A stretch of DNA of 36,928 nt. It comes from a virus. Lineage: Duplodnaviria; Heunggongvirae; Uroviricota; Caudoviricetes. The translations under genes and the position numbers were made by a program. Each line of letters begins with the position of its first letter. Within the stretch, counting starts at the first letter, position 1. Below the pieces are notes generated by a model. It saw only the letters and a list, made by a program, of their open reading frames with translations, did not search any database and had not been told where the DNA came from. The stretch lies in IMG/VR virus record IMGVR_UViG_2778261565_000018, positions 1 to 36,928 of that record. The stretch is one strand, 5' to 3'. Shown piece after piece: positions 6,854 to 13,906 of this stretch.

Positions 6854-6951
6854 TTTTTATAAGCGTCGACGGCCTCACGAAACATCTTTTCATCGCCAAT
6901 AAAAGTGGCGATAGTGAATTTAGTCTGGATAGCCATAAGTGTTTGATCCAT
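6808..6951 (-). CDS. kil: Kil (FtsZ inhibitor), 47 aa
   Basis: [47 protein letters not shown] inside the longer track ORF; overlaps gam and cIII as in lambda. Confidence 0.85.
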
Positions 6952-7084
6952 TTTTTGGGACTCCTGGCTGATTAAGTATGTCGATAAGGCGTTTCCATCC
7001 GTCACGTAATTTACGGGTGATTCGTTCAAGTAAAGATTCGGAAGGGCAGCCAGCAACAGGCCACCCTGCAATGGCATATTGCAT
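6920..7084 (-). CDS. cIII: CIII (FtsH inhibitor), 54 aa
   Basis: Hand-translated [54 protein letters not shown]; overlaps kil 5' end by 32 nt. Confidence 0.85.
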   Translation of the reverse strand: MQYAIAGWPVAGCPSESLLERITRKLRDGWKRLIDILNQPGVPKNGSNTYGYPD

Positions 7085-7156
7085 GGTGTGCTCCTTATTT
7101 ATACATAACGAAAAACGCCTCGAGTGAAGCGTTATTGGTATGCGGTAACGCAGCGC

Positions 7157-7525
7157 TCAGGCGGCTTTGATAGTCATATCATCTGAATCAAATATTCCTG
7201 ATGTATCGATATCGGTAATTCTTATTCCTTCGCTACCATCCATTGGAGGCCATCCTTCCTGACCATTTCCATCATTCCAGTCGAACTCACACACAACACC
7301 ATATGCATTTAAGTCGCTTGAAATTGCTATAAGCAGAACATGTTGCGCCAGCATGATTAATACAGCATTTAATACAGAGCCGTGTTTATTGAGTCGGTAT
7401 TCAGAGTCTGACCAGAAATTATTAATCTGGTGAAGTTTTTCCTCTGTCATTACGTCATGGTCGATTTCAATTTCTATTGATGCTTTCCAGTCGTAATCAA
7501 TGATGTATTTTTTGATGTTTGACAT
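7157..7525 (-). CDS. ea10: Ea10 protein, 122 aa
   Basis: 122-aa ORF at the lambda ea10 position; N terminus MSNIKKYIIDYDWKASIEIE. Confidence 0.8.
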   Translation of the reverse strand: MSNIKKYIIDYDWKASIEIEIDHDVMTEEKLHQINNFWSDSEYRLNKHGSVLNAVLIMLAQHVLLIAISSDLNAYGVVCEFDWNDGNGQEGWPPMDGSEGIRITDIDTSGIFDSDDMTIKAA

Positions 7526-7544
7526 CTATTCATATCCTCATAGA

Positions 7545-7571
7545 TAAAAAATCGCCCTCACATCGGAGGGC
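7545..7571 (-). terminator. Putative intrinsic terminator (tL-type) upstream of ea10
   Basis: GCCCTC-6 nt loop-GAGGGC followed on minus strand by a T-run. Confidence 0.45.
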
Positions 7572-7689
7572 AAAGAAGATTTCCAATAATCAGAACAAGT
7601 CGGCTCCTGTTTAGTTACGAGCGACATTGCTCCGTGTATTCACTCGTTGGAATGAATACACAGTGCAGTGTTTATTCTGTTGTTTATGC

Positions 7690-7715
7690 CAAAAATAAAG
7701 GCCGACTATGCGGCC
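7690..7715 (-). terminator. Putative intrinsic terminator after the membrane-protein gene
   Basis: GGCCG-loop-CGGCC followed on minus strand by TTTATTTTT. Confidence 0.45.
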
Positions 7716-7720
7716 TGAAA

Positions 7721-8170
7721 TTACTTAACCAATGATGCTGCATATTCGATAAGGTAAAGCTTTGGGGCCAGCCAAATTTTTAACCAAGTCATATTGGTTA
7801 CTACACCAATAATAAAAATCCCCCACAGAGTCAAAACTCCAACCAATGGCATGATAAGAAGATTAATATCACCTTTGCTATCCCAAACCATTGTCGGCCT
7901 GTATTTGGGATTTCCTTTCTCCCATGAATATCCTTCATCACCGATTTTACCTGTCTCAACTCTTTGGCACTGCTTCTTCATAAACCAGAAAACCAGTGGG
8001 ATTGTTAGAATGGCCATTAATGTTTTAATCAGACTGTCAACCATATTCCATAGCAGCAACTGATGAACAACATCAGGAATCTGTGCCTGGCTAAATGAAA
8101 CAGCCGCGTCTATTCCATTACTGGCTTTTTGCAGTAGTTCTACGAGAATCTTGTTTGCTTGTTCTTCCAT
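7721..8170 (-). CDS. Hypothetical membrane protein at the ral/sieB position (possible superinfection exclusion)
   Basis: 149-aa ORF with hydrophobic helices (LMAILTIPLVFWFM, LLIMPLVGVLTLWGIFIIGVV); visibly AT-rich. Confidence 0.55.
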   Translation of the reverse strand: MEEQANKILVELLQKASNGIDAAVSFSQAQIPDVVHQLLLWNMVDSLIKTLMAILTIPLVFWFMKKQCQRVETGKIGDEGYSWEKGNPKYRPTMVWDSKGDINLLIMPLVGVLTLWGIFIIGVVTNMTWLKIWLAPKLYLIEYAASLVK

Positions 8171-8309
8171 ATATCACCTTGATTGTAATAAGCATGAAAT
8201 TATTTACGGACAAAAATAAAGGCCACCATCAGGCAGCCTTGTAGTTCTGTTTACCAAGTTCTCTGGCAATCATTGTCGTCGTTCGTATTGTCCACACCAT
8301 TGATTCTTA

Positions 8310-8396
8310 TCAATAGTCGTAGTCATACGGATAGTCCTGGTATTGTTCCATCACATCCTGAGGATGCTCTTCGAACTCTTCAAATTCTTCTTCCAT
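8310..8396 (-). CDS. Possible acidic micropeptide (28 aa, MEEEFEEFEEHPQD...YDYDY)
   Basis: Hand-found ORF with GAGGTGAG Shine-Dalgarno upstream of ATG; may be spurious. Confidence 0.25.
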   Translation of the reverse strand: MEEEFEEFEEHPQDVMEQYQDYPYDYDY

Positions 8397-8454
8397 ATCT
8401 CACCTCAAATAAGTGGTTTGCTGCCTAATTTCATTTTCTGGCGACCAACACAAG

Positions 8455-8727
8455 TCATCTTGCTGTCAGTTGTTTGGATTTCCGGTAGCCTGCCGCGTAA
8501 AGAGCTACGTTCGGAAGACAAGTTGAACCTTCATATTTTCTGGTCAACGTTGTCAGTGTTATTACTTCTGCTCTCATTGCTGGTTTGCGCTTGCATTGCA
8601 AGACCACTCGTGAAGGGGTTGGCCTGTGTAGCTTGTCGGAGCTGATCGCCTCCTGACTTTGCAGATTTGCGCGACGAGCTCTACGGCGAGAAGCTGCGGT
8701 GCCTTTAAATTCTGTTTTTCTGGACAT
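8455..8727 (-). CDS. N: N-like transcription antiterminator (P22 gene 24 type), 90 aa
   Basis: Arginine-rich motif GTAASRRRARRANL; C terminus VALYAAGYRKSKQLTAR resembles P22-type N; GGAGG RBS; sits downstream of nutL. Confidence 0.75.
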   Translation of the reverse strand: MSRKTEFKGTAASRRRARRANLQSQEAISSDKLHRPTPSRVVLQCKRKPAMRAEVITLTTLTRKYEGSTCLPNVALYAAGYRKSKQLTAR

Positions 8728-8752
8728 GGATTCCTCCCGAATAAACTTTGGC

Positions 8753-8800
8753 GATGCAATCTCGAAGCTCCTCCTGAGACGGTTGCTTCGGCATTGCATC
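8753..8800 (-). promoter_or_regulatory. Extended N-leader hairpin (candidate RNase III or translational control element)
   Basis: GATGCAAT..CGAAGC-16 nt loop-GCTTCG..ATTGCATC, about 14 bp of pairing between nutL and the N RBS. Confidence 0.35.
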
Positions 8801-8825
8801 CCACAGCTTATGTGGTTGGGTGATC

Positions 8826-8871
8826 TGGCTTTTCAGCCACGTAGTCGAGAGTCGACGTTGTTTAAAGAGCC
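8826..8871 (-). promoter_or_regulatory. nutL: nutL (boxA GGCTCTTTAA; boxB UGGCU-GAAA-AGCCA)
   Basis: Minus-strand read; near-identical architecture to nutR at 11505-11550. Confidence 0.6.
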
Positions 8872-8916
8872 TGCCAGTCTGTTCCATTTGGCTTCCAGCG
8901 TCCTGCTGACGGTTAA

Positions 8917-8995
8917 ATAGTACGATATGTACTTTACAAGATCAATACAATTTGTTGTAAGTTGGCGTGGTTTTTTATAACGCTTTGTATTTAAT
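8917..8995 (-). promoter_or_regulatory. pL promoter with OL operator region
   Basis: Minus-strand TTGATC (-35), 17 bp, TACTAT (-10); motifs ATATGTACTTTAC and ACGCTTTGTA shared with OR. Confidence 0.45.
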
Positions 8996-9130
8996 AGTGT
9001 TGTTTTTTAGCGTGGATGTATTGTCTCGGCGATGTAAGGAGAGATCAGAATTGCGTGGTTTAGTGGGTTGCATCTATTTATTTTTCAATAAATATAATTG
9101 GTTATGTGTTTTTAGGTGGGCGAACGTGAG

Positions 9131-9158
9131 GCAAAGAAAACCCGGCGCTGAGGCCGGG
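9131..9158 (-). terminator. Intrinsic terminator ending the cI-distal operon
   Basis: CCCGGC-6 nt loop-GCCGGG followed on minus strand by TTTTCTTTG, 5 nt after the 250-aa ORF stop. Confidence 0.6.
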
Positions 9159-9163
9159 TTGTA

Positions 9164-9916
9164 TTATGCTGCAAGTCTCTTAATCCAAGTCTCTCTTTTG
9201 GAGAATGGTAGAACTTGGCTTGATTCATGGAAGAGTAAGGAGAGTTGTTGCATTTGATCACCAATTGCTTCGCTGTCTATAACAACAAATCTGTTGTTAT
9301 ACTCCTCACTTGAAGCTTTAAGATCAATTAGTTTCCCAAGCAATGAGTAAGCACTATTCCAGCTTCCTCCGTGTTTCACGCTTGATGTAAAAACGTATTT
9401 AGGTATGTCGGTTTTTATTGTTACAGGGACGGTAATTTGATGTCCACTCAAGCCATATACGTTTTCACGAAGAGAAAGTGCGTCTCTAAGCTCTGTGTGA
9501 TATAGATAATCAATAACCATACTTTCAAACTTTTCAGCTTGAACTGGCTGATACCAGTCTAACGACAAAGTTGATGCGAGTATACCAGCTCTAATTATGT
9601 TCGATGTAATCGCACCGACATCCTTTTCTGTTGCCCAAGCAATGATTTCTCCTCGAGCATTGAGTTCTGCGCCTTCTTTAAGCAGTAATTGTCGTATCTC
9701 ATCAAGTCGTTTTTTGGTAAGCGAGATCCCTCTTGCCTCCATATTCATTAAGGCATCGCATCTGTCACTAACTAAATACCTACCATTGACTTCACGGATA
9801 AAGGCACCGACATGCTCTCCATCATCACAGTAAGTGAATGGACTGATAATTCTCAAGGTCTTGCCTATTGGATGGCATTCGAAACCTAGTTGTGAGATCA
9901 CTGTTGAGCACATCAT
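9164..9916 (-). CDS. Hypothetical protein B (250 aa), distal gene of rex-slot cassette
   Basis: ORF track; ATGATG start overlaps upstream ORF stop (ATGA); no family recognised; AT-rich. Confidence 0.6.
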   Translation of the reverse strand: MMCSTVISQLGFECHPIGKTLRIISPFTYCDDGEHVGAFIREVNGRYLVSDRCDALMNMEARGISLTKKRLDEIRQLLLKEGAELNARGEIIAWATEKDVGAITSNIIRAGILASTLSLDWYQPVQAEKFESMVIDYLYHTELRDALSLRENVYGLSGHQITVPVTIKTDIPKYVFTSSVKHGGSWNSAYSLLGKLIDLKASSEEYNNRFVVIDSEAIGDQMQQLSLLFHESSQVLPFSKRETWIKRLAA

Positions 9917-10470
9917 ATTCCAAACCCCATTTGCCCCGACTCATCTTCAAGCGGTAAAGGTATTCTCCCAGAGTAAGTTATGTTCAGATGTTTACAGAAG
10001 TAATTCCAATACCCTACCAGGTCATCTGGGTTTATGTCATCTTCGATTGGAAACGCTATTCTATCACTATAGTATCCAGCTTCTTCATAGTATACATGGT
10101 AGTGAGCACCGTAAATGATATCTTGGTACTTCGGATGATCGACCTTGTAACTATTCGTGTGTTTGTCAAAGTGATAGGTATCTACCGCGAAAACCCTCTT
10201 GTTATGATAGAAAGCAATAATATTTATTTTAGGGTAAGAAATCGGGTCATCAGGTTCTGAATCCTGATCTGGTTTCCATTTCAGTTCAAACTTTAGCCCT
10301 TGTATAGGTATACAATCCTCATCCAAGGGGATGATATGAGCTTGTAGCCACATATCAGAGCGACTTGGTTTCTGTTTCCATTTAACGCCAGAAAAGTTAA
10401 CTATTTTTTTACAATAAAGTACTTTATCAACTTCTACTTGGCTTGGCTGATAATCATCTATTTTTGCCAA
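9913..10470 (-). CDS. Hypothetical protein A (up to 185 aa), proximal gene of rex-slot cassette
   Basis: ORF track; co-directional with cI, 39 nt downstream; only a TTG start at 10470 or an internal ATG near 10353; no family recognised. Confidence 0.5.
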   Translation of the reverse strand: MAKIDDYQPSQVEVDKVLYCKKIVNFSGVKWKQKPSRSDMWLQAHIIPLDEDCIPIQGLKFELKWKPDQDSEPDDPISYPKINIIAFYHNKRVFAVDTYHFDKHTNSYKVDHPKYQDIIYGAHYHVYYEEAGYYSDRIAFPIEDDINPDDLVGYWNYFCKHLNITYSGRIPLPLEDESGQMGFGI

Positions 10471-10509
10471 TGTTTACCGCCCTGTAAATTGTAGATAAAA
10501 GTGGTTTCA

Positions 10510-11169
10510 TCACCCAAACGTCTCTTCAGGCCATTGGCTGGCGATAACTTTCCCCACAACGGAACAACTCTCATTGCATGGGATCATTGGGTATTGTGGG
10601 TTTAGTGGCTGTAGAAACACCTGACCGCTATCCCTGATCAGTTTCTTGAAGGTAAATTCATCACCACCAAGTCTGGCTATGCAGAAATCGCCGGGCTCAA
10701 CAGCTTGCTCAGGGTCAACCAGAATTAACATCCCGTCAGGAAAGCTGGGTTTGGAACCTGTTGGTGCGGTCATTGAGTTACCTTCAACCTCAAGCCAGAA
10801 TGCAGAGTCACTGGCTTTTTTGGTTGTGCTTACCAATCTCTCCGCATCGCCTTTGGTAAAGGTTCTGAGTTCTGGAGAGAACATCCCAGCCTGAACATGA
10901 GAAAAAACAGGGTACTCATATTGTTTTTTAACTGGGGCCGATGAGTATTCGCCAACAGGTGAAAATGTCCCGTCGTGGTTGAATGATATGTTATCAATAC
11001 CAAGGTATTTAAACACCACACCAATATCACTAAGAGATGGATGACGAGATCCGCGCAACCAGTGTCCAATCCCACCCTGCGTCATACCTAGCTCTTCGGC
11101 TAACTTCTCTTGAGTTATGCCGAGCTCTTTCATTCTGGATCTAGCCAGTTCATACCATTTCATTTTCAT
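10510..11169 (-). CDS. cI: CI-type repressor: XRE-family HTH N-domain plus lambda-cI-identical C-terminal S24 domain
   Basis: C-terminal about 135 aa ([21 protein letters not shown]...QWPEETFG) match lambda cI; N-terminal HTH differs; start taken at MKMKWYEL, alternatives upstream. Confidence 0.9.
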
Positions 11170-11278
11170 GTCCTTATTATTACGCTTTGTACTGGAACCA
11201 TCCATGCACAATGTGTATTTTTACTTGTATTCGTAAAGTACATATTGTATTTTTATTCGTGTTTACTATGGAGGGCAT
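11170..11278 (+). promoter_or_regulatory. OR operator region with divergent pR/pRM
   Basis: Between divergent cI and cro; TTGTAT-17 bp-TATTTT candidate pR; motifs GTAAAGTACATAT and ACGCTTTGTA shared with OL. Confidence 0.5.
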
Positions 11279-11494
11279 ATGAGCAACCTACGAAAATATC
11301 GAGAGTCACTGAATATCTCTCAAACAACACTTGCTAAGGCAGTTGGATGCACACAGGGAGCTATCGGACATTGGGAATCTGGTCGTCGCTTCCCAGACCT
11401 TAAAACATGCCGTGCTCTTGTTGCATGCCTAAACAAGTTAGGCGCAAAAGTCAGTCTTGATGACGTGTTCCCGCCGGAACACAAAGCCGCTTAA
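11279..11494 (+). CDS. cro: Cro-like repressor (HTH), 71 aa, non-lambda type
   Basis: HTH motif ISQTTLAKAVGCTQGAIGHWESG; first rightward gene from OR; GGAGGG RBS. Confidence 0.8.
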   Translation: MSNLRKYRESLNISQTTLAKAVGCTQGAIGHWESGRRFPDLKTCRALVACLNKLGAKVSLDDVFPPEHKAA

Positions 11495-11504
11495 TAAGCG
11501 GATC

Positions 11505-11550
11505 CGCTCTTTGTAACAACGGACATTCGTCCTACGTCGCTGAAAAGCGA
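11505..11550 (+). promoter_or_regulatory. nutR: nutR (boxA CGCTCTTT; boxB UCGCU-GAAA-AGCGA)
   Basis: boxA-like motif then GNRA-loop hairpin; mirrors nutL. Confidence 0.6.
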
Positions 11551-11579
11551 GTTCCAAGATATCTGACCAACTAAGGCCA

Positions 11580-11597
11580 TATGCGTTTCCACGCATA
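11580..11597 (+). terminator. Candidate tR1-region hairpin
   Basis: TATGCGT-ttcc-ACGCATA between nutR and cII; no strong T-run. Confidence 0.3.
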
Positions 11598-11635
11598 CCT
11601 TTCAACTAACTATTCACTATTGGAAATCTTAAGAA

Positions 11636-11932
11636 ATGGAAAGAACAAGTTACAGCAAACTATCACAGCGTGACGTTGATCGCGCAGAAACAGATTTACT
11701 TATCAATCTGTCAGCTATTACCCAGCGCGGTCTGGCAAAGATGATTGGCTGTCATGAATCGAAGATAAGCAGAACGGACTGGAGATTTATTGCTTCGGTC
11801 TTGTGTGCTTTCGGAATGGCATCAGACATAAGTCCGATTAGCAGGGCTTTTAAGTATGCGCTTGATGGATTCACCAATAAAAAACGCCCGGCGGCAACCG
11901 AGCGTTCTGAACAAATCCAGATGGAATTCTGA
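11636..11932 (+). CDS. cII: CII transcriptional activator (hybrid: lambda-identical C terminus)
   Basis: C-terminal NKKRPAATERSEQIQMEF matches lambda CII; N-terminal part differs. Confidence 0.85.
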   Translation: MERTSYSKLSQRDVDRAETDLLINLSAITQRGLAKMIGCHESKISRTDWRFIASVLCAFGMASDISPISRAFKYALDGFTNKKRPAATERSEQIQMEF

Positions 11933-11964
11933 GGTCATTACTGGATCAATCCACAGGAGTCATT

Positions 11965-12864
11965 ATGACAAATACAGCAAAAATACTCAACTTCTGCAGA
12001 GGTAACTTTGCCAAACAGGAGCGTAATGTGGCAGATCTCGATGATGGTTACGCCAGACTATCAAATATGCTGCTTGAGGCTTATTCGGGCGCAGATCTGA
12101 CCAAGCGACAGTTTAAAGTGCTGCTTGCCATTCTGCGTAAAACCTATGGGTGGAATAAACCAATGGACAGAATCACCGATTCTCAACTTAGCGAGATTAC
12201 AAAGTTACCTGTCAAACGGTGCAATGAAGCCAAGTTAGAACTCGTCAGAATGAATATTATCAAGCAGCAAGGCGGCATGTTTGGACCAAATAAAAACATC
12301 TCAGAATGGTGTATCCCTCAAAACGAGGGACAATCCCCTAAAACGAGGGATAAAACATCCCTCAAATTGGGGGATTGCTATCCCTCAAAACAGGGGGACA
12401 CAAAAGACACTATTACAAAAGAAAAAAGAAAAGATTATTCGTCAGAGAATTCTGGCGAATCCTCTGACCAGCCAGAAAACGATCTTTCTGTGGTTAAACC
12501 GGATGCTGCAATTCAGAGCGGCAGCAAGTGGGGGACAGCAGAAGACCTGACCGCCGCAGAGTGGATGTTTGACATGGTGAAGACTATCGCACCATCAGCC
12601 AGAAAACCGAATTTTGCTGGGTGGGCTAACGATATCCGCCTGATGCGTGAACGTGACGGACGTAACCACCGCGACATGTGCGTGCTGTTCCGCTGGGCAT
12701 GCCAGGACAACTTCTGGTCCGGTAACGTGCTGAGCCCGGCCAAACTCCGCGATAAGTGGACCCAACTCGAAATCAACCGTAACAAGCAACAGGCTGGCGT
12801 GACAGCCGGAAAACCAAAACTCGACCTGACAAACACTGACTGGATTTACGGGGTGGATCTATGA
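11965..12864 (+). CDS. O: Replication initiator O, 299 aa
   Basis: Protein recognised as lambda O; contains ori iterons. Confidence 0.95.
   Translation: MTNTAKILNFCRGNFAKQERNVADLDDGYARLSNMLLEAYSGADLTKRQFKVLLAILRKTYGWNKPMDRITDSQLSEITKLPVKRCNEAKLELVRMNIIKQQGGMFGPNKNISEWCIPQNEGQSPKTRDKTSLKLGDCYPSKQGDTKDTITKEKRKDYSSENSGESSDQPENDLSVVKPDAAIQSGSKWGTAEDLTAAEWMFDMVKTIAPSARKPNFAGWANDIRLMRERDGRNHRDMCVLFRWACQDNFWSGNVLSPAKLRDKWTQLEINRNKQQAGVTAGKPKLDLTNTDWIYGVDL
12312..12440 (+). repeat. ori-lambda: four about 19-bp iterons (ATCCCTCAAAACGAGGG-like) plus AT-rich region
   Basis: Four tandem iteron copies at about 12312-12399 followed by A-rich tract, inside O. Confidence 0.9.
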
Positions 12865-13562
12865 AAAACATCGCCGCACAGATGGTTAACTTTGACCGTG
12901 AGCAGATGCGTCGGATCGCCAACAACATGCCGGAACAGTACGACGAAAAGCCACAGGTACAGCAGGTAGCGCAGATCATCAACGGTGTGTTCAGCCAGTT
13001 ACTGGCAACTTTCCCGGCGAGTCTGGCTAACCGTGACCAGAACGAACTGAACGAAATCCGTCGCCAGTGGGTTCTGGCTTTTCGGGAAAACGGGATCACC
13101 ACGATGGAACAGGTTAACGCAGGAATGCGCGTAGCCCGTCGGCAGAATCGACCATTTCTGCCATCACCCGGGCAGTTTGTTGCATGGTGCCGGGAAGAAG
13201 CATCCGTTATCGCCGGACTGCCAAACGTCAGCGAGCTGGTTGATATGGTTTACGAGTATTGCCGGAAGCGAGGCCTGTATCCGGATGCGGAGTCTTATCC
13301 GTGGAAATCAAACGCGCACTACTGGCTGGTTACCAACCTGTATCAGAACATGCGGGCCAATGCGCTTACTGATGCGGAATTACGCCGTAAGGCCGCAGAT
13401 GAGCTTGTCCATATGACTGCGAGAATTAACCGTGGTGAGGCGATCCCTGAACCAGTAAAACAACTTCCTGTCATGGGCGGTAGACCTCTAAATCGTGCAC
13501 AGGCTCTGGCGAAGATCGCAGAAATCAAAGCTAAGTTCGGACTAAAAGGAGCAAGTGTATGA
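12861..13562 (+). CDS. P: Replication protein P (DnaB loader), 233 aa
   Basis: Protein recognised as lambda P. Confidence 0.95.
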   Translation: MKNIAAQMVNFDREQMRRIANNMPEQYDEKPQVQQVAQIINGVFSQLLATFPASLANRDQNELNEIRRQWVLAFRENGITTMEQVNAGMRVARRQNRPFLPSPGQFVAWCREEASVIAGLPNVSELVDMVYEYCRKRGLYPDAESYPWKSNAHYWLVTNLYQNMRANALTDAELRRKAADELVHMTARINRGEAIPEPVKQLPVMGGRPLNRAQALAKIAEIKAKFGLKGASV

Positions 13563-13874: not shown

Positions 13875-13906
13875 AGGCCTGCTGGTAATCGCAGGCCTTT
13901 TTATTT
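13875..13906 (+). terminator. Intrinsic terminator (tR2-like) before nin region
   Basis: AGGCCTGC-8 nt loop-GCAGGCCT followed by TTTTTATTT. Confidence 0.75.

What the first reader, a model, noticed from the sequence alone, without database searches (positions are those of the whole stretch)
8826..8871. Matching nutL and nutR sites with GAAA-loop boxB hairpins
Both sites share the layout GCTCTTT..AACAACG..CTACGT followed by a 5-bp stem with a GAAA loop (UGGCU-GAAA-AGCCA at nutL; UCGCU-GAAA-AGCGA at 11537-11550). This supports an N-dependent antitermination system matched to the P22-type N encoded here. The same sequence in both orientations on either side of the immunity region is hard to explain by chance.
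Basis: partly seen in the sequence, partly recalled or inferred. Interest (0 to 1): 0.4.

Follow-up and report, generated by a model that had tools for sequence, protein, structure and literature searches.

The report
Phage nut sites with tetraloop boxB
These are the two RNA signals (nutL and nutR) that let a lambda-like E. coli phage's N protein override transcription terminators; this is an ordinary, well-understood system, with the modest twist that the protein-binding hairpin has a true four-base GNRA loop instead of the five-base loop of lambda, P22 and H-19B.

Summary
An identical motif frame occurs exactly twice, at 8826-8870 (minus strand) and 11506-11550 (plus strand), against 0 expected by chance. 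The sites lie where lambda has nutL (between pL and N) and nutR (between cro and cII). Across 14 distinct relatives both hairpins covary: 97% of cells pair, 6 of 10 pairs change on both sides, and 0 of 500 shuffles reach that score. The nutR-tR1 segment is 93% identical to the experimentally studied H-19B nutR/tR1. It differs in boxA and by one loop base (GACAA to GAAA). The "P22-type N" label holds only for the C-terminus. The arginine-rich motif (GTAASRRRARRANLQSQ) is a separate class, and in every lineage checked it goes with a GNRA tetraloop boxB (GAAA or GCAA), including Pantoea prophages found through the protein alone. P22, H-19B/HK97 and lambda-type motifs go with pentaloops. This is a known mechanism with an unannotated specificity variant, present in about 16% of complete E. 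coli genomes. No binding or read-through was tested.

The parts
8858..8871 (-). nutL boxA, rrn/consensus type (GGCUCUUUAAACAA)
   Evidence: rrn boxA is UGCUCUUUA followed by the spacer ACAAUUUA, and lambda boxA is CGCUCUUA (PMC2724277).
8844..8856 (-). nutL spacer hairpin GUCGA-CUC-UCGAC
   Evidence: Relatives covary here (GUCGA/UCGAC, GGUGA/UCACC, GAAGAU/AUCUUC): 94% of cells pair and 3 of 5 pairs change on both sides.
8840..8843 (-). Conserved UACG linker between the spacer hairpin and boxB
   Evidence: The linker is also present in H-19B nutL and nutR and in HK97.
8826..8839 (-). nutL boxB: UGGCU-GAAA-AGCCA, a 5-bp stem with a GNRA tetraloop
   Evidence: The stem is 100% paired across 14 distinct relatives, with 3 covarying pairs.
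11505..11519 (+). nutR boxA (CGCUCUUUGUAACAA), starting 11 nt after the cro stop codon
11521..11532 (+). nutR spacer hairpin GGAC-AUUC-GUCC, identical to that of H-19B and HK97 nutR
   Evidence: In H-19B this spacer is footprinted by NusA and by Rho (PMC3526286).
11533..11536 (+). UACG linker
11537..11550 (+). nutR boxB: UCGCU-GAAA-AGCGA. It has the same stem as H-19B nutR boxB but lacks the loop C.
8455..8727 (-). N antiterminator gene (90 aa from MSRKTEF, preceded by GGGAGGA). The ARM is GTAASRRRARRANLQSQ and the C-terminus is CLPNVALYAAGYRKSKQLTAR. The longer in-frame ORF runs up to 8799.
   Evidence: Pfam N_peptide PF25694, E = 2e-32. PHROG 271. 41% identity to H-19B N. Homologues start at the equivalent Met.
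8917..8945 (-). Putative pL (-35 TTGATC, 17 nt, -10 TACTAT) overlapping an operator-like GTAAAGTACATATCGTA (8921-8937). The conserved leader CAGCAGGACGC lies at 8898-8909.
   Evidence: Promoters and operators are annotated at equivalent positions in NC_004913.
11225..11253 (+). Putative pR (-35 TTGTAT, 17 nt, -10 TATTTT) overlapping the operator-like GTAAAGTACATATTGTA (11233-11249)
11551..11635 (+). tR1-equivalent segment between nutR and cII, near-identical to the Rho-dependent tR1 region of H-19B. It includes the hairpin AUGCGUUUCCACGCAU at 11581-11596.
   Evidence: PMC3526286.
8219..8240 (-). First intrinsic-terminator-like hairpin downstream of N in the pL operon (tL1 position). Further ones lie at 7699-7716, 7552-7573 and 7114-7133.
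   Evidence: One search found 10 terminator-like sites against 3.5 expected.
13875..13898 (+). Intrinsic-terminator-like hairpin with a U-tract after the O, P and ren-like genes in the pR operon (tR2-like position)

Best explanation
The two sites are the nutL and nutR RNA elements of a lambdoid E. coli phage. Transcripts from pL (leftward, minus strand) and pR (rightward, through cro) each contain four parts: an rrn-like boxA, which binds NusB/NusE; a short spacer hairpin plus a UACG linker, the region bound by NusA in lambda and H-19B; and a boxB hairpin. The arginine-rich N-terminus of the phage's own N protein, encoded just downstream of nutL, binds boxB. N then assembles with the Nus factors on RNA polymerase and makes it resistant to termination. 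That lets polymerase pass the Rho-dependent tR1 before cII, the intrinsic terminator after ren, and the series of terminators downstream of N on the left. The architecture is the H-19B/HK97 type (long spacer with a hairpin). The recognition module is a separate specificity class: boxB carries a canonical GNRA tetraloop (GAAA, or GCAA in relatives) rather than a GNRNA pentaloop with one extruded base, and it is paired with its own ARM class (F-x-G-[TS]-[AS]-x-x-RRR-x-x-R-x-x-LQ). What is shown: the sequences, positions, folds, covariation, homology, and the association between ARM and loop. What is inferred: N binding to boxB, Nus factor use, read-through, and non-cross-reactivity with other N proteins.
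For: The motif is present exactly twice, in divergent orientation, against 0 expected. The gene order N <- nutL <- pL ... cI | cro -> nutR -> cII-O-P matches annotated lambda. A shared operator-like element overlaps sigma70-like promoters for both transcripts, and the pL leader is conserved with lambda, P22 and H-19B. N matches Pfam N_peptide at 2e-32. The nutR-tR1 region is 93% identical to H-19B nutR/tR1, where N-dependent antitermination and the N, NusA and Rho footprints were shown experimentally (PMC3526286, PMC4499122). In a viral-contig scan that fixed boxA and CTACG but left the hairpins free, about 150 of 169 sites carry a 5-bp stem with a GNRA loop. On 14 distinct sequences, 97% of cells pair, 6 of 10 pairs change on both sides, 0 of 500 shuffles reach the score, and slid controls pair at 17-46%. 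ARM and loop go together. Eight distinct ARM variants of this class all sit with tetraloops. These include Pantoea prophages found by protein alone, one of which has a lambda-type C-terminus. P22-type (E. albertii), H-19B/HK97-type and lambda-type (Winslowiella) ARMs sit with GACAA, GACAA and GAAAA pentaloops. Within single phages nutL and nutR both carry tetraloops: L024 has GCAA and GCAA, L025 and L030 have GAAA and GAAA. Terminator-like hairpins lie downstream in both operons. The module is carried by phages deposited under their own names (ev017, PhiR57_1, Stx2 phages 1717 and 2851) and by 856 of 5426 complete E. coli genomes.
Against: There is no experimental evidence for this particular N/boxB pair. 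No public record I inspected annotates the sites, and I found no paper on them. The relatives are not phylogenetically independent, so the covariation counts overstate the number of independent events. The viral-contig set was selected by boxA and CTACG, which ties it to this scaffold. For lambda N, published data favour GNRNA pentaloops (PMC12027372), so tetraloop recognition here is inferred, not demonstrated. In isolation the 61-nt RNAs are predicted to prefer a fold that disrupts boxB by about 0-3 kcal/mol.
Confidence: 0.9

Rival explanations
1. These are nut sites, but the GAAA loop is just a tolerated one-base deletion of the H-19B/P22 GACAA loop. On this reading it is not a separate specificity class: this N and H-19B, P22 or lambda N would cross-react on each other's boxB.
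For: The stem and context of nutR are identical to H-19B and HK97 apart from the loop C. The extruded pentaloop base is reported not to contact lambda N (PMC12027372, citing Legault 1998). The ARM core RRRxRRAxxQxQ resembles that of lambda.
Against: The ARM differs from H-19B and P22 across most of its length. The association between ARM and loop is perfect in every lineage checked, even where the N C-terminal modules have been swapped. Both nut sites of a given phage always carry the tetraloop. Relatives vary the loop only within GNRA (GAAA or GCAA).
Confidence: 0.3
2. The two similar segments are a leftover of recombination or duplication between the arms of the immunity region, or they are generic hairpins (terminators, RNase III sites), with no role in N action.
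For: Lambdoid phages are highly mosaic. The hairpins are short. The z-scores for the 61-nt folds are modest (-0.9 and -1.9).
Against: Similarity is confined to the functional blocks, and the spacer hairpins differ in sequence while keeping their pairing. No U-tract follows boxB. The positions match the lambda nut sites exactly. The site is homologous to a nut site proven functional in H-19B (PMC3526286). The compensatory changes argue for selection on the structure.
Confidence: 0.03
3. The nutL segment is part of a protein-coding ORF (8705-8887, minus strand, 60 aa; or the 114-aa extended N ORF starting at 8799), and its conservation reflects coding constraint.
For: Both ORFs exist mechanically. 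Several public records annotate N as the 114-aa form.
Against: The ATG at 8887 is not conserved in relatives with the same leader (ACG in E. albertii). Some relatives have only the 90-aa ORF (L015). The substitution pattern is compensatory base pairing, not codon-wise. The nutR copy lies in the cro-cII intergenic region with no ORF. The Shine-Dalgarno sequence GGGAGGA precedes the MSRKTEF start.
Confidence: 0.02

Closest known systems
H-19B / HK97 / 933W-type nut sites with their N protein (Neely & Friedman 1998, 2000; work from the Sen laboratory, PMC3526286 and PMC4499122)
   Same: The architecture is the same: boxA, spacer hairpin, UACG, then a 5-bp boxB. The nutR spacer hairpin, boxB stem and tR1 region are nearly identical (93% over 180 nt). 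The N proteins share the central HRPTxSR segment and the C-terminal CLPNVALYAAGYRKSKQLTAR.
   Different: The boxB loop is GAAA, not GACAA. The ARM is GTAASRRRARRANLQSQ, not GNSRSRRRERLKAKALANG. boxA is a near-consensus rrn type (CGCUCUUUG / GGCUCUUUA), whereas H-19B nutR has CGCUAUUUU and I saw no obvious boxA in H-19B nutL. N is 90 aa rather than 127 aa and lacks a ~37-residue central insert.
Lambda N / nutL and nutR
   Same: The genomic positions, boxA-spacer-boxB order and U-A closing pair are the same, as is a GNRA-type loop fold (lambda's pentaloop folds as GNRA with one base extruded, per PMC12027372). The ARM core RRRxRRAxxQxQ is shared.
   Different: Lambda has a 5-nt loop (GAAAA or GAAGA), a short unstructured spacer, boxA CGCUCUUA, and Trp18 in the ARM. 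Here the loop is 4 nt, the spacer is a hairpin, and no Trp is present. phmmer does not connect this N to any solved structure.
P22 gp24 (N) / nut sites
   Same: The pL leader is similar (CAGGACGCTGG.AGCCAAA.GGAA), boxA is consensus-like (CGCUCUUUA), and the C-terminal ~24 residues of N match.
   Different: P22 boxB is GCGCU-GACAA-AGCGC, there is no spacer hairpin, and the ARM is GNAKTRRHERRRKLAIER.
E. coli rrn antiterminator boxA
   Same: GCUCUUUAACAA is almost exactly reproduced: nutL has GCUCUUUAAACAA (PMC2724277).
   Different: In rrn the order is boxB-boxA-boxC and no N protein is needed. Here boxA precedes a hairpin and an N-specific boxB.

Membership tests
Lambdoid N-utilisation (nut) site | A boxA-like element (CGCUCUU(U)A) lies 5' of boxB on the transcript | tested here: met
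   GGCUCUUUA at nutL and CGCUCUUUG at nutR. The consensus is taken from PMC2724277.
Lambdoid N-utilisation (nut) site | boxB is a short stem-loop with a GNRA-type loop fold | tested here: met
   The stem is 5 bp with a GAAA loop. It is 100% paired with 3 covarying pairs in relatives, and the loop varies only within GNRA. It is a true tetraloop, not the canonical pentaloop.
Lambdoid N-utilisation (nut) site | One copy lies between pL and N, and one lies between cro and tR1/cII, each on the sense strand of its operon | tested here: met
Lambdoid N-utilisation (nut) site | [quoted passage not shown] | tested here: met
   Pfam N_peptide at 2e-32 and PHROG 271. The ARM is visible.
Lambdoid N-utilisation (nut) site | N binds boxB RNA and confers terminator read-through | not testable with these tools
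   This needs EMSA or fluorescence binding assays and reporter assays. It has been shown only for the homologous H-19B system (PMC3526286, PMC4499122).
H-19B/HK97-type nut | A long spacer with a hairpin (dyad symmetry) lies between boxA and boxB, followed by UACG | tested here: met
H-19B/HK97-type nut | GACAA pentaloop boxB | tested here: not met
   The loop is GAAA in both sites.
H-19B/HK97-type nut | H-19B-type ARM (GNSRSRRRERLKAKALANG) | tested here: not met
   Only the C-terminal 24 residues match (79% identity).
Lambda-type N/boxB | GAARA pentaloop and an ARM with Trp18 | tested here: not met
   A genuine lambda-type pair (Winslowiella L130) keeps both the Trp and the GAAAA loop.

The most novel reading that the evidence does not exclude
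This N/boxB pair is a further, orthogonal lambdoid antitermination specificity class beyond those compared here (lambda, P22, H-19B/HK97). Its ARM recognises a canonical GNRA tetraloop with no extruded base. Because published structures report that NusA contacts boxB in the lambda N complex (PMC8632103), the missing extruded base may change how NusA is engaged. If so, the pair would give a natural test of what the fifth loop base is for, and a compact new orthogonal peptide-RNA tethering pair.
Probability: 0.45. Interest if true: 0.45.

Novelty: new variant of a known kind. Interest (0 to 1): 0.3.

Why it matters
N/nut antitermination is textbook biology, so finding nut sites in a lambdoid phage is expected. 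Three things add modest value. First, these sites, and often N itself, are unannotated in public records, although the module sits in about 16% of complete E. coli genomes and in several Stx1- and Stx2-converting phages, where early-operon read-through is needed to reach Q and hence toxin expression. Second, the natural tetraloop boxB with its own ARM shows that specificity can be switched by a single-base loop change plus ARM replacement on an otherwise identical nutR/tR1 scaffold. That is a clean example of RNA-peptide co-evolution and of module shuffling in N. Third, it may provide an additional orthogonal boxB/N-peptide pair for RNA tethering tools.

Tried and rejected
1. Rfam (E <= 1, 7000-13000) has no nut or boxB family. 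Its only significant hit is the cIII thermoregulator, so Rfam cannot confirm or refute the sites.

2. phmmer of N against PDB sequences returned nothing, even at E <= 10. I did not attempt structure prediction, because N is reported to be intrinsically disordered (PMC8632103) and the question concerns an RNA complex.

3. I tested the alternative fold that pairs boxA with the boxB loop and 3' arm. It is the MFE only for the AGGCUCUUU and CCGCUCUUUG variants, by about 0-3 kcal/mol, and is absent from many relatives, so I rejected it as a conserved feature. It remains a possible local regulatory detail, reminiscent of the title of Neely & Friedman 2000.

4. That paper is not held in the library. 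What I say about H-19B beyond PMC3526286 and PMC4499122 rests on its title and on the sequences I read myself.

5. Four literature searches found no description of a natural GNRA-tetraloop boxB. That is absence from an incomplete library, not proof of novelty.

6. The sigma70 scan did not call pL or pR at its 9-of-12 threshold. I assigned them by eye at 8 of 12, supported by the shared operator, the conserved leader, and the annotation in NC_004913.

7. nutR was not located in the two Pantoea loci.

Full report
OBSERVATION. The two sequences exist as described. Read on the minus strand, 8870->8826 is GCTCTTTAAACAACGTCGACTCTCGACTACGTGGCTGAAAAGCCA. On the plus strand, 11506-11550 is GCTCTTTGTAACAACGGACATTCGTCCTACGTCGCTGAAAAGCGA. 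The composite pattern matches exactly these two places, against 0.00 expected in 100 dinucleotide-preserving shuffles. The CTACG+boxB half, allowing 2 mismatches, also finds only these two, against 0.01 expected. Each 14-nt boxB folds as a 5-bp stem with a GAAA loop (-6.3 and -5.7 kcal/mol, z = -2.8 and -4.6).

ANATOMY. It is in fact a second hairpin: GUCGA-CUC-UCGAC at 8844-8856 and GGAC-AUUC-GUCC at 11521-11532. The full layout is boxA, spacer hairpin, UACG linker, then boxB. boxA is GGCUCUUUAAACAA at nutL and CGCUCUUUGUAACAA at nutR. That is the consensus or rrn type (rrn UGCUCUUUA plus ACAAUUUA) rather than the lambda type (CGCUCUUA), going by the sequences tabulated in PMC2724277.

CONTEXT. 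The surrounding genes are a standard lambdoid early region:
- N at 8455-8727, minus strand (Pfam N_peptide, 2e-32)
- a LexA-family cI at 10510-11211, minus strand
- cro at 11279-11494
- cII at 11636-11932
- O and P downstream

This is the same order as annotated lambda, where Nutl lies between oL and N and Nutr lies between cro and cII. An operator-like element, GTAAAGTACATAT[C/T]GTA, occurs in divergent orientation at 8921-8937 and 11233-11249. At each place it overlaps -35/-10-like hexamers. The Stx1-converting phage record NC_004913, which encodes an identical N, annotates promoters and operators at the equivalent places but no nut sites. The leader CAGCAGGACGC downstream of pL is shared with lambda, H-19B and P22.

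Terminator-like hairpins follow in both operons. On the left they lie at 8219-8240, 7699-7716, 7552-7573 and 7114-7133, on the way to cIII, which is marked by an Rfam Lambda_thermo hit at 7039-7097. On the right there is one at 13875-13898, after ren.

IDENTITY OF THE PHAGE. The 3.3-kb region is 99.6% identical to phages ev017, ev207 and PhiR57_1. The N/nut/cI-cro-cII parts, but not the two ORFs between pL and cI, are about 97% identical to Stx2 phages 1717, 2851, YYZ-2008 and others. The N+nutL segment occurs in 856 of 5426 complete E. coli genomes, where PGAP labels the ORFs 'hypothetical protein'.

HOMOLOGY TO A CHARACTERISED nut SITE. H-19B (AF034975) nutR reads CGCUAUUUUCACAAUGGACAUUCGUCCUACGUCGCUGACAAAGCGA. 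The window's nutR-to-cII segment aligns to it at 93% column identity. The differences cluster in boxA, plus one indel in the boxB loop (GACAA in H-19B, GAAA here). HK97 is the same as H-19B in this respect. H-19B nutL also has a spacer hairpin (GAUUC-GAAUAU-GAAUC), then UACG, then GCGCU-GACAA-AGCGC.

[quoted passage not shown] The window's site is therefore a direct homologue of an experimentally validated nut site.

COVARIATION. I scanned viral contigs with a pattern that fixed boxA and CTACG but left the spacer and everything downstream free. This gave 169 sites in 119 loci. About 150 of them carry a 5-bp stem with a GNRA tetraloop directly after CUACG. The boxB variants are:
- UGGCU-GAAA-AGCCA
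- UCGCU-GAAA-AGCGA
- UGGCU-GCAA-AGCCA
- UGGCC-GCAA-GGCCA
- UGGCC-GCAA-GGUCA
- CAGCU-GAAA-AGCUG

The spacer hairpin changes sequence and loop length but keeps its pairing: GUCGA/UCGAC, GGAC/GUCC, GGUGA/UCACC, GAAGAU/AUCUUC. On 14 distinct sequences, 97.1% of cells pair against 84% when shuffled. Six of 10 pairs change on both sides, 0 of 500 shuffles reach the covariation score, and slid controls pair at 17-46%. boxB alone is 100% paired with three covarying pairs. Two caveats apply. Many of these phages are close relatives, and win_nutR is misaligned in the spacer columns, which accounts for the few 'unpaired' cells.

THE N PROTEIN AND THE 'P22-TYPE' LABEL. N is 41% identical to H-19B N, sharing the central HRPTxSR segment and the C-terminus CLPNVALYAAGYRKSKQLTAR. 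Only the last ~24 residues match P22 gp24. The ARMs differ:
- window: GTAASRRRARRANLQSQ
- H-19B and HK97: GNSRSRRRERLKAKALANG
- P22: GNAKTRRHERRRKLAIER
- lambda: DAQTRRRERRAEKQAQWKAAN

The closest core is lambda's (RRRxRRAxxQxQ), but without Trp18. 'P22-type N' is therefore correct for the C-terminal segment only and wrong for the RNA-recognition module.

ARM AND LOOP GO TOGETHER. Downstream of every tetraloop nutL, the N ORF has the ARM pattern F-x-G-[TS]-[AS]-x-x-RRR-x-x-R-x-x-LQ. This covers several diverged proteins of 47-86% identity. Sites with the same boxA/hairpin/CUACG scaffold but a different downstream hairpin (GGUGC-CGAGAAC-GCACC) go with other ARMs (NAKSRRNARRAEEAI, NAATRRHQRRAAEAI).

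An independent scan of bacterial genomes anchored on the conserved N C-terminal peptide, with no nut pattern, gave four informative loci:
- Pantoea conspicua (L124): ARM GSASGRRRERRAHLQS, a lambda-like C-terminus (...GKSIPLI), and upstream UGGCU-GAAA-AGCCA
- Pantoea sp. (L126): the same ARM class and the same boxB
- E. albertii (L127): the P22 ARM with CGCGCU-GACAA-AGCGCG and no spacer hairpin
- Winslowiella (L130): a lambda-like ARM with Trp (EKQAAWKQAN) and GCGCU-GAAAA-AGCGC

Within single phages both nut sites carry tetraloops. L024 has GCAA at nutL and nutR, L025 and L030 have GAAA at both, and L015 has GCAA at one and GAAA at the other. These include nutR copies that the original pattern had not selected. 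Loop length therefore follows the ARM class and not the rest of N, as expected if the ARM reads the loop.

MECHANISM (inferred by homology). NusB/NusE bind boxA. NusA binds the spacer. The N ARM binds the GNRA-tetraloop boxB. The remainder of N contacts NusA and RNA polymerase to give a termination-resistant complex. That complex reads through tR1 and the tR2-like terminator on the right and the tL terminators on the left. Lambda N is reported to prefer GNRNA loops that fold as GNRA with one base extruded, and that base does not contact N (PMC12027372). A canonical GNRA loop is therefore a structurally plausible target for a lambda-like ARM core. Whether this pair is orthogonal to the pentaloop systems, and whether losing the extruded base alters NusA engagement, has not been tested.

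ALTERNATIVE FOLD. For the 61-nt RNAs, the MFE structure pairs boxA with the boxB loop and 3' arm, enclosing the spacer hairpin. The base before GCUCUUU (G at nutL, C at nutR) even matches the differing boxB stem base. However, the energy advantage is only about 0-3 kcal/mol, and many relatives do not form this fold at all. I treat it as unproven and not as a conserved feature.

NOVELTY. The mechanism and architecture are known. The specific tetraloop-boxB/ARM class is not annotated in the records I inspected, and I did not find it in four literature searches. The library is incomplete, and the key H-19B paper is not held. I rate this as a new variant of a known kind, of modest interest.

Noticed in passing
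window 9164-9916 and 9913-10470 (minus strand), with a terminator-like hairpin at 9139-9160: Two overlapping ORFs (250 aa with DUF1828 / phrog_1960; 185 aa with a weak DUF6978 hit / phrog_2017) occupy the rexA/rexB position between cI and pL. They are replaced by other genes in the Stx phages that share the N/nut and cI-cro modules. They are candidates for prophage-expressed exclusion or defence genes.
   Followed up: partly
window 7039-7097 (minus strand): A strong Rfam hit to the lambda cIII thermoregulator RNA (RF01804, 88.5 bits) at the start of the cIII ORF (6920-7084), downstream of four terminator-like hairpins in the pL operon.
   Followed up: no
window 11881-11908 (minus strand): A strong intrinsic-terminator-like hairpin (12 pairs plus a U-tract) lies antisense within the 3' end of cII, with a promoter-like site at 11990-11962. 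This resembles the lambda oop antisense RNA arrangement.
   Followed up: no
window 8826-8871 (minus strand) and 11504-11551 (plus strand): The predicted MFE fold pairs boxA with the boxB loop and 3' arm. The base before GCUCUUU (G at nutL, C at nutR) matches the one boxB stem position that differs between the sites. The fold is not conserved in many relatives and is only about 0-3 kcal/mol more stable.
   Followed up: yes
window 11487-11501 (plus strand): A 6-bp hairpin, CCGCUU-AAU-AAGCGG, spans the cro stop codon immediately upstream of nutR boxA. It is absent from H-19B at this position.
   Followed up: no
window 8801-8815 (minus strand): The hairpin CCACA-UAAGC-UGUGG lies about 10 nt after nutL boxB in the N leader. 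Lambda, P22, H-19B and Pantoea leaders have a CCAAAG...CUUUGG hairpin at the comparable place.
   Followed up: no
L034 5841, L041 4763, L044 (minus strand), L075 2206: These sites have the same boxA / spacer-hairpin / CUACG scaffold, but it is followed by a different hairpin (GGUGC-CGAGAAC-GCACC, a 7-nt loop). They are paired with N proteins carrying other ARMs (NAKSRRNARRAEEAI, NAATRRHQRRAAEAI). This looks like another boxB/ARM specificity class on the same chassis.
   Followed up: partly
L124 (Pantoea conspicua) and L130 (Winslowiella arboricola): N proteins are modular chimeras. L124 combines the tetraloop-class ARM with a lambda-type C-terminus (...GKSIPLI). L130 combines a lambda-type ARM with a P22/H-19B-type C-terminus (...AAGHRKSENVTAR).
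   Followed up: partly
window 8455-8799 (minus strand); E. coli RefSeq hits H86-H93; NC_004913; NC_049943: Annotation is inconsistent. N is called as 114 aa from an upstream ATG in some phage records and as 'hypothetical protein' in PGAP-annotated E. coli genomes. The Shine-Dalgarno sequence and the homologues support the 90-aa form starting MSRKTEF.
   Followed up: partly
L123 and L128 (JAJXBQ010000280 and JAJXBQ010000254): Two short contigs with E. coli lambdoid-phage N genes (one 98% identical to the window's N) are binned in a MAG labelled Segatella copri. This is probably binning contamination.
   Followed up: no
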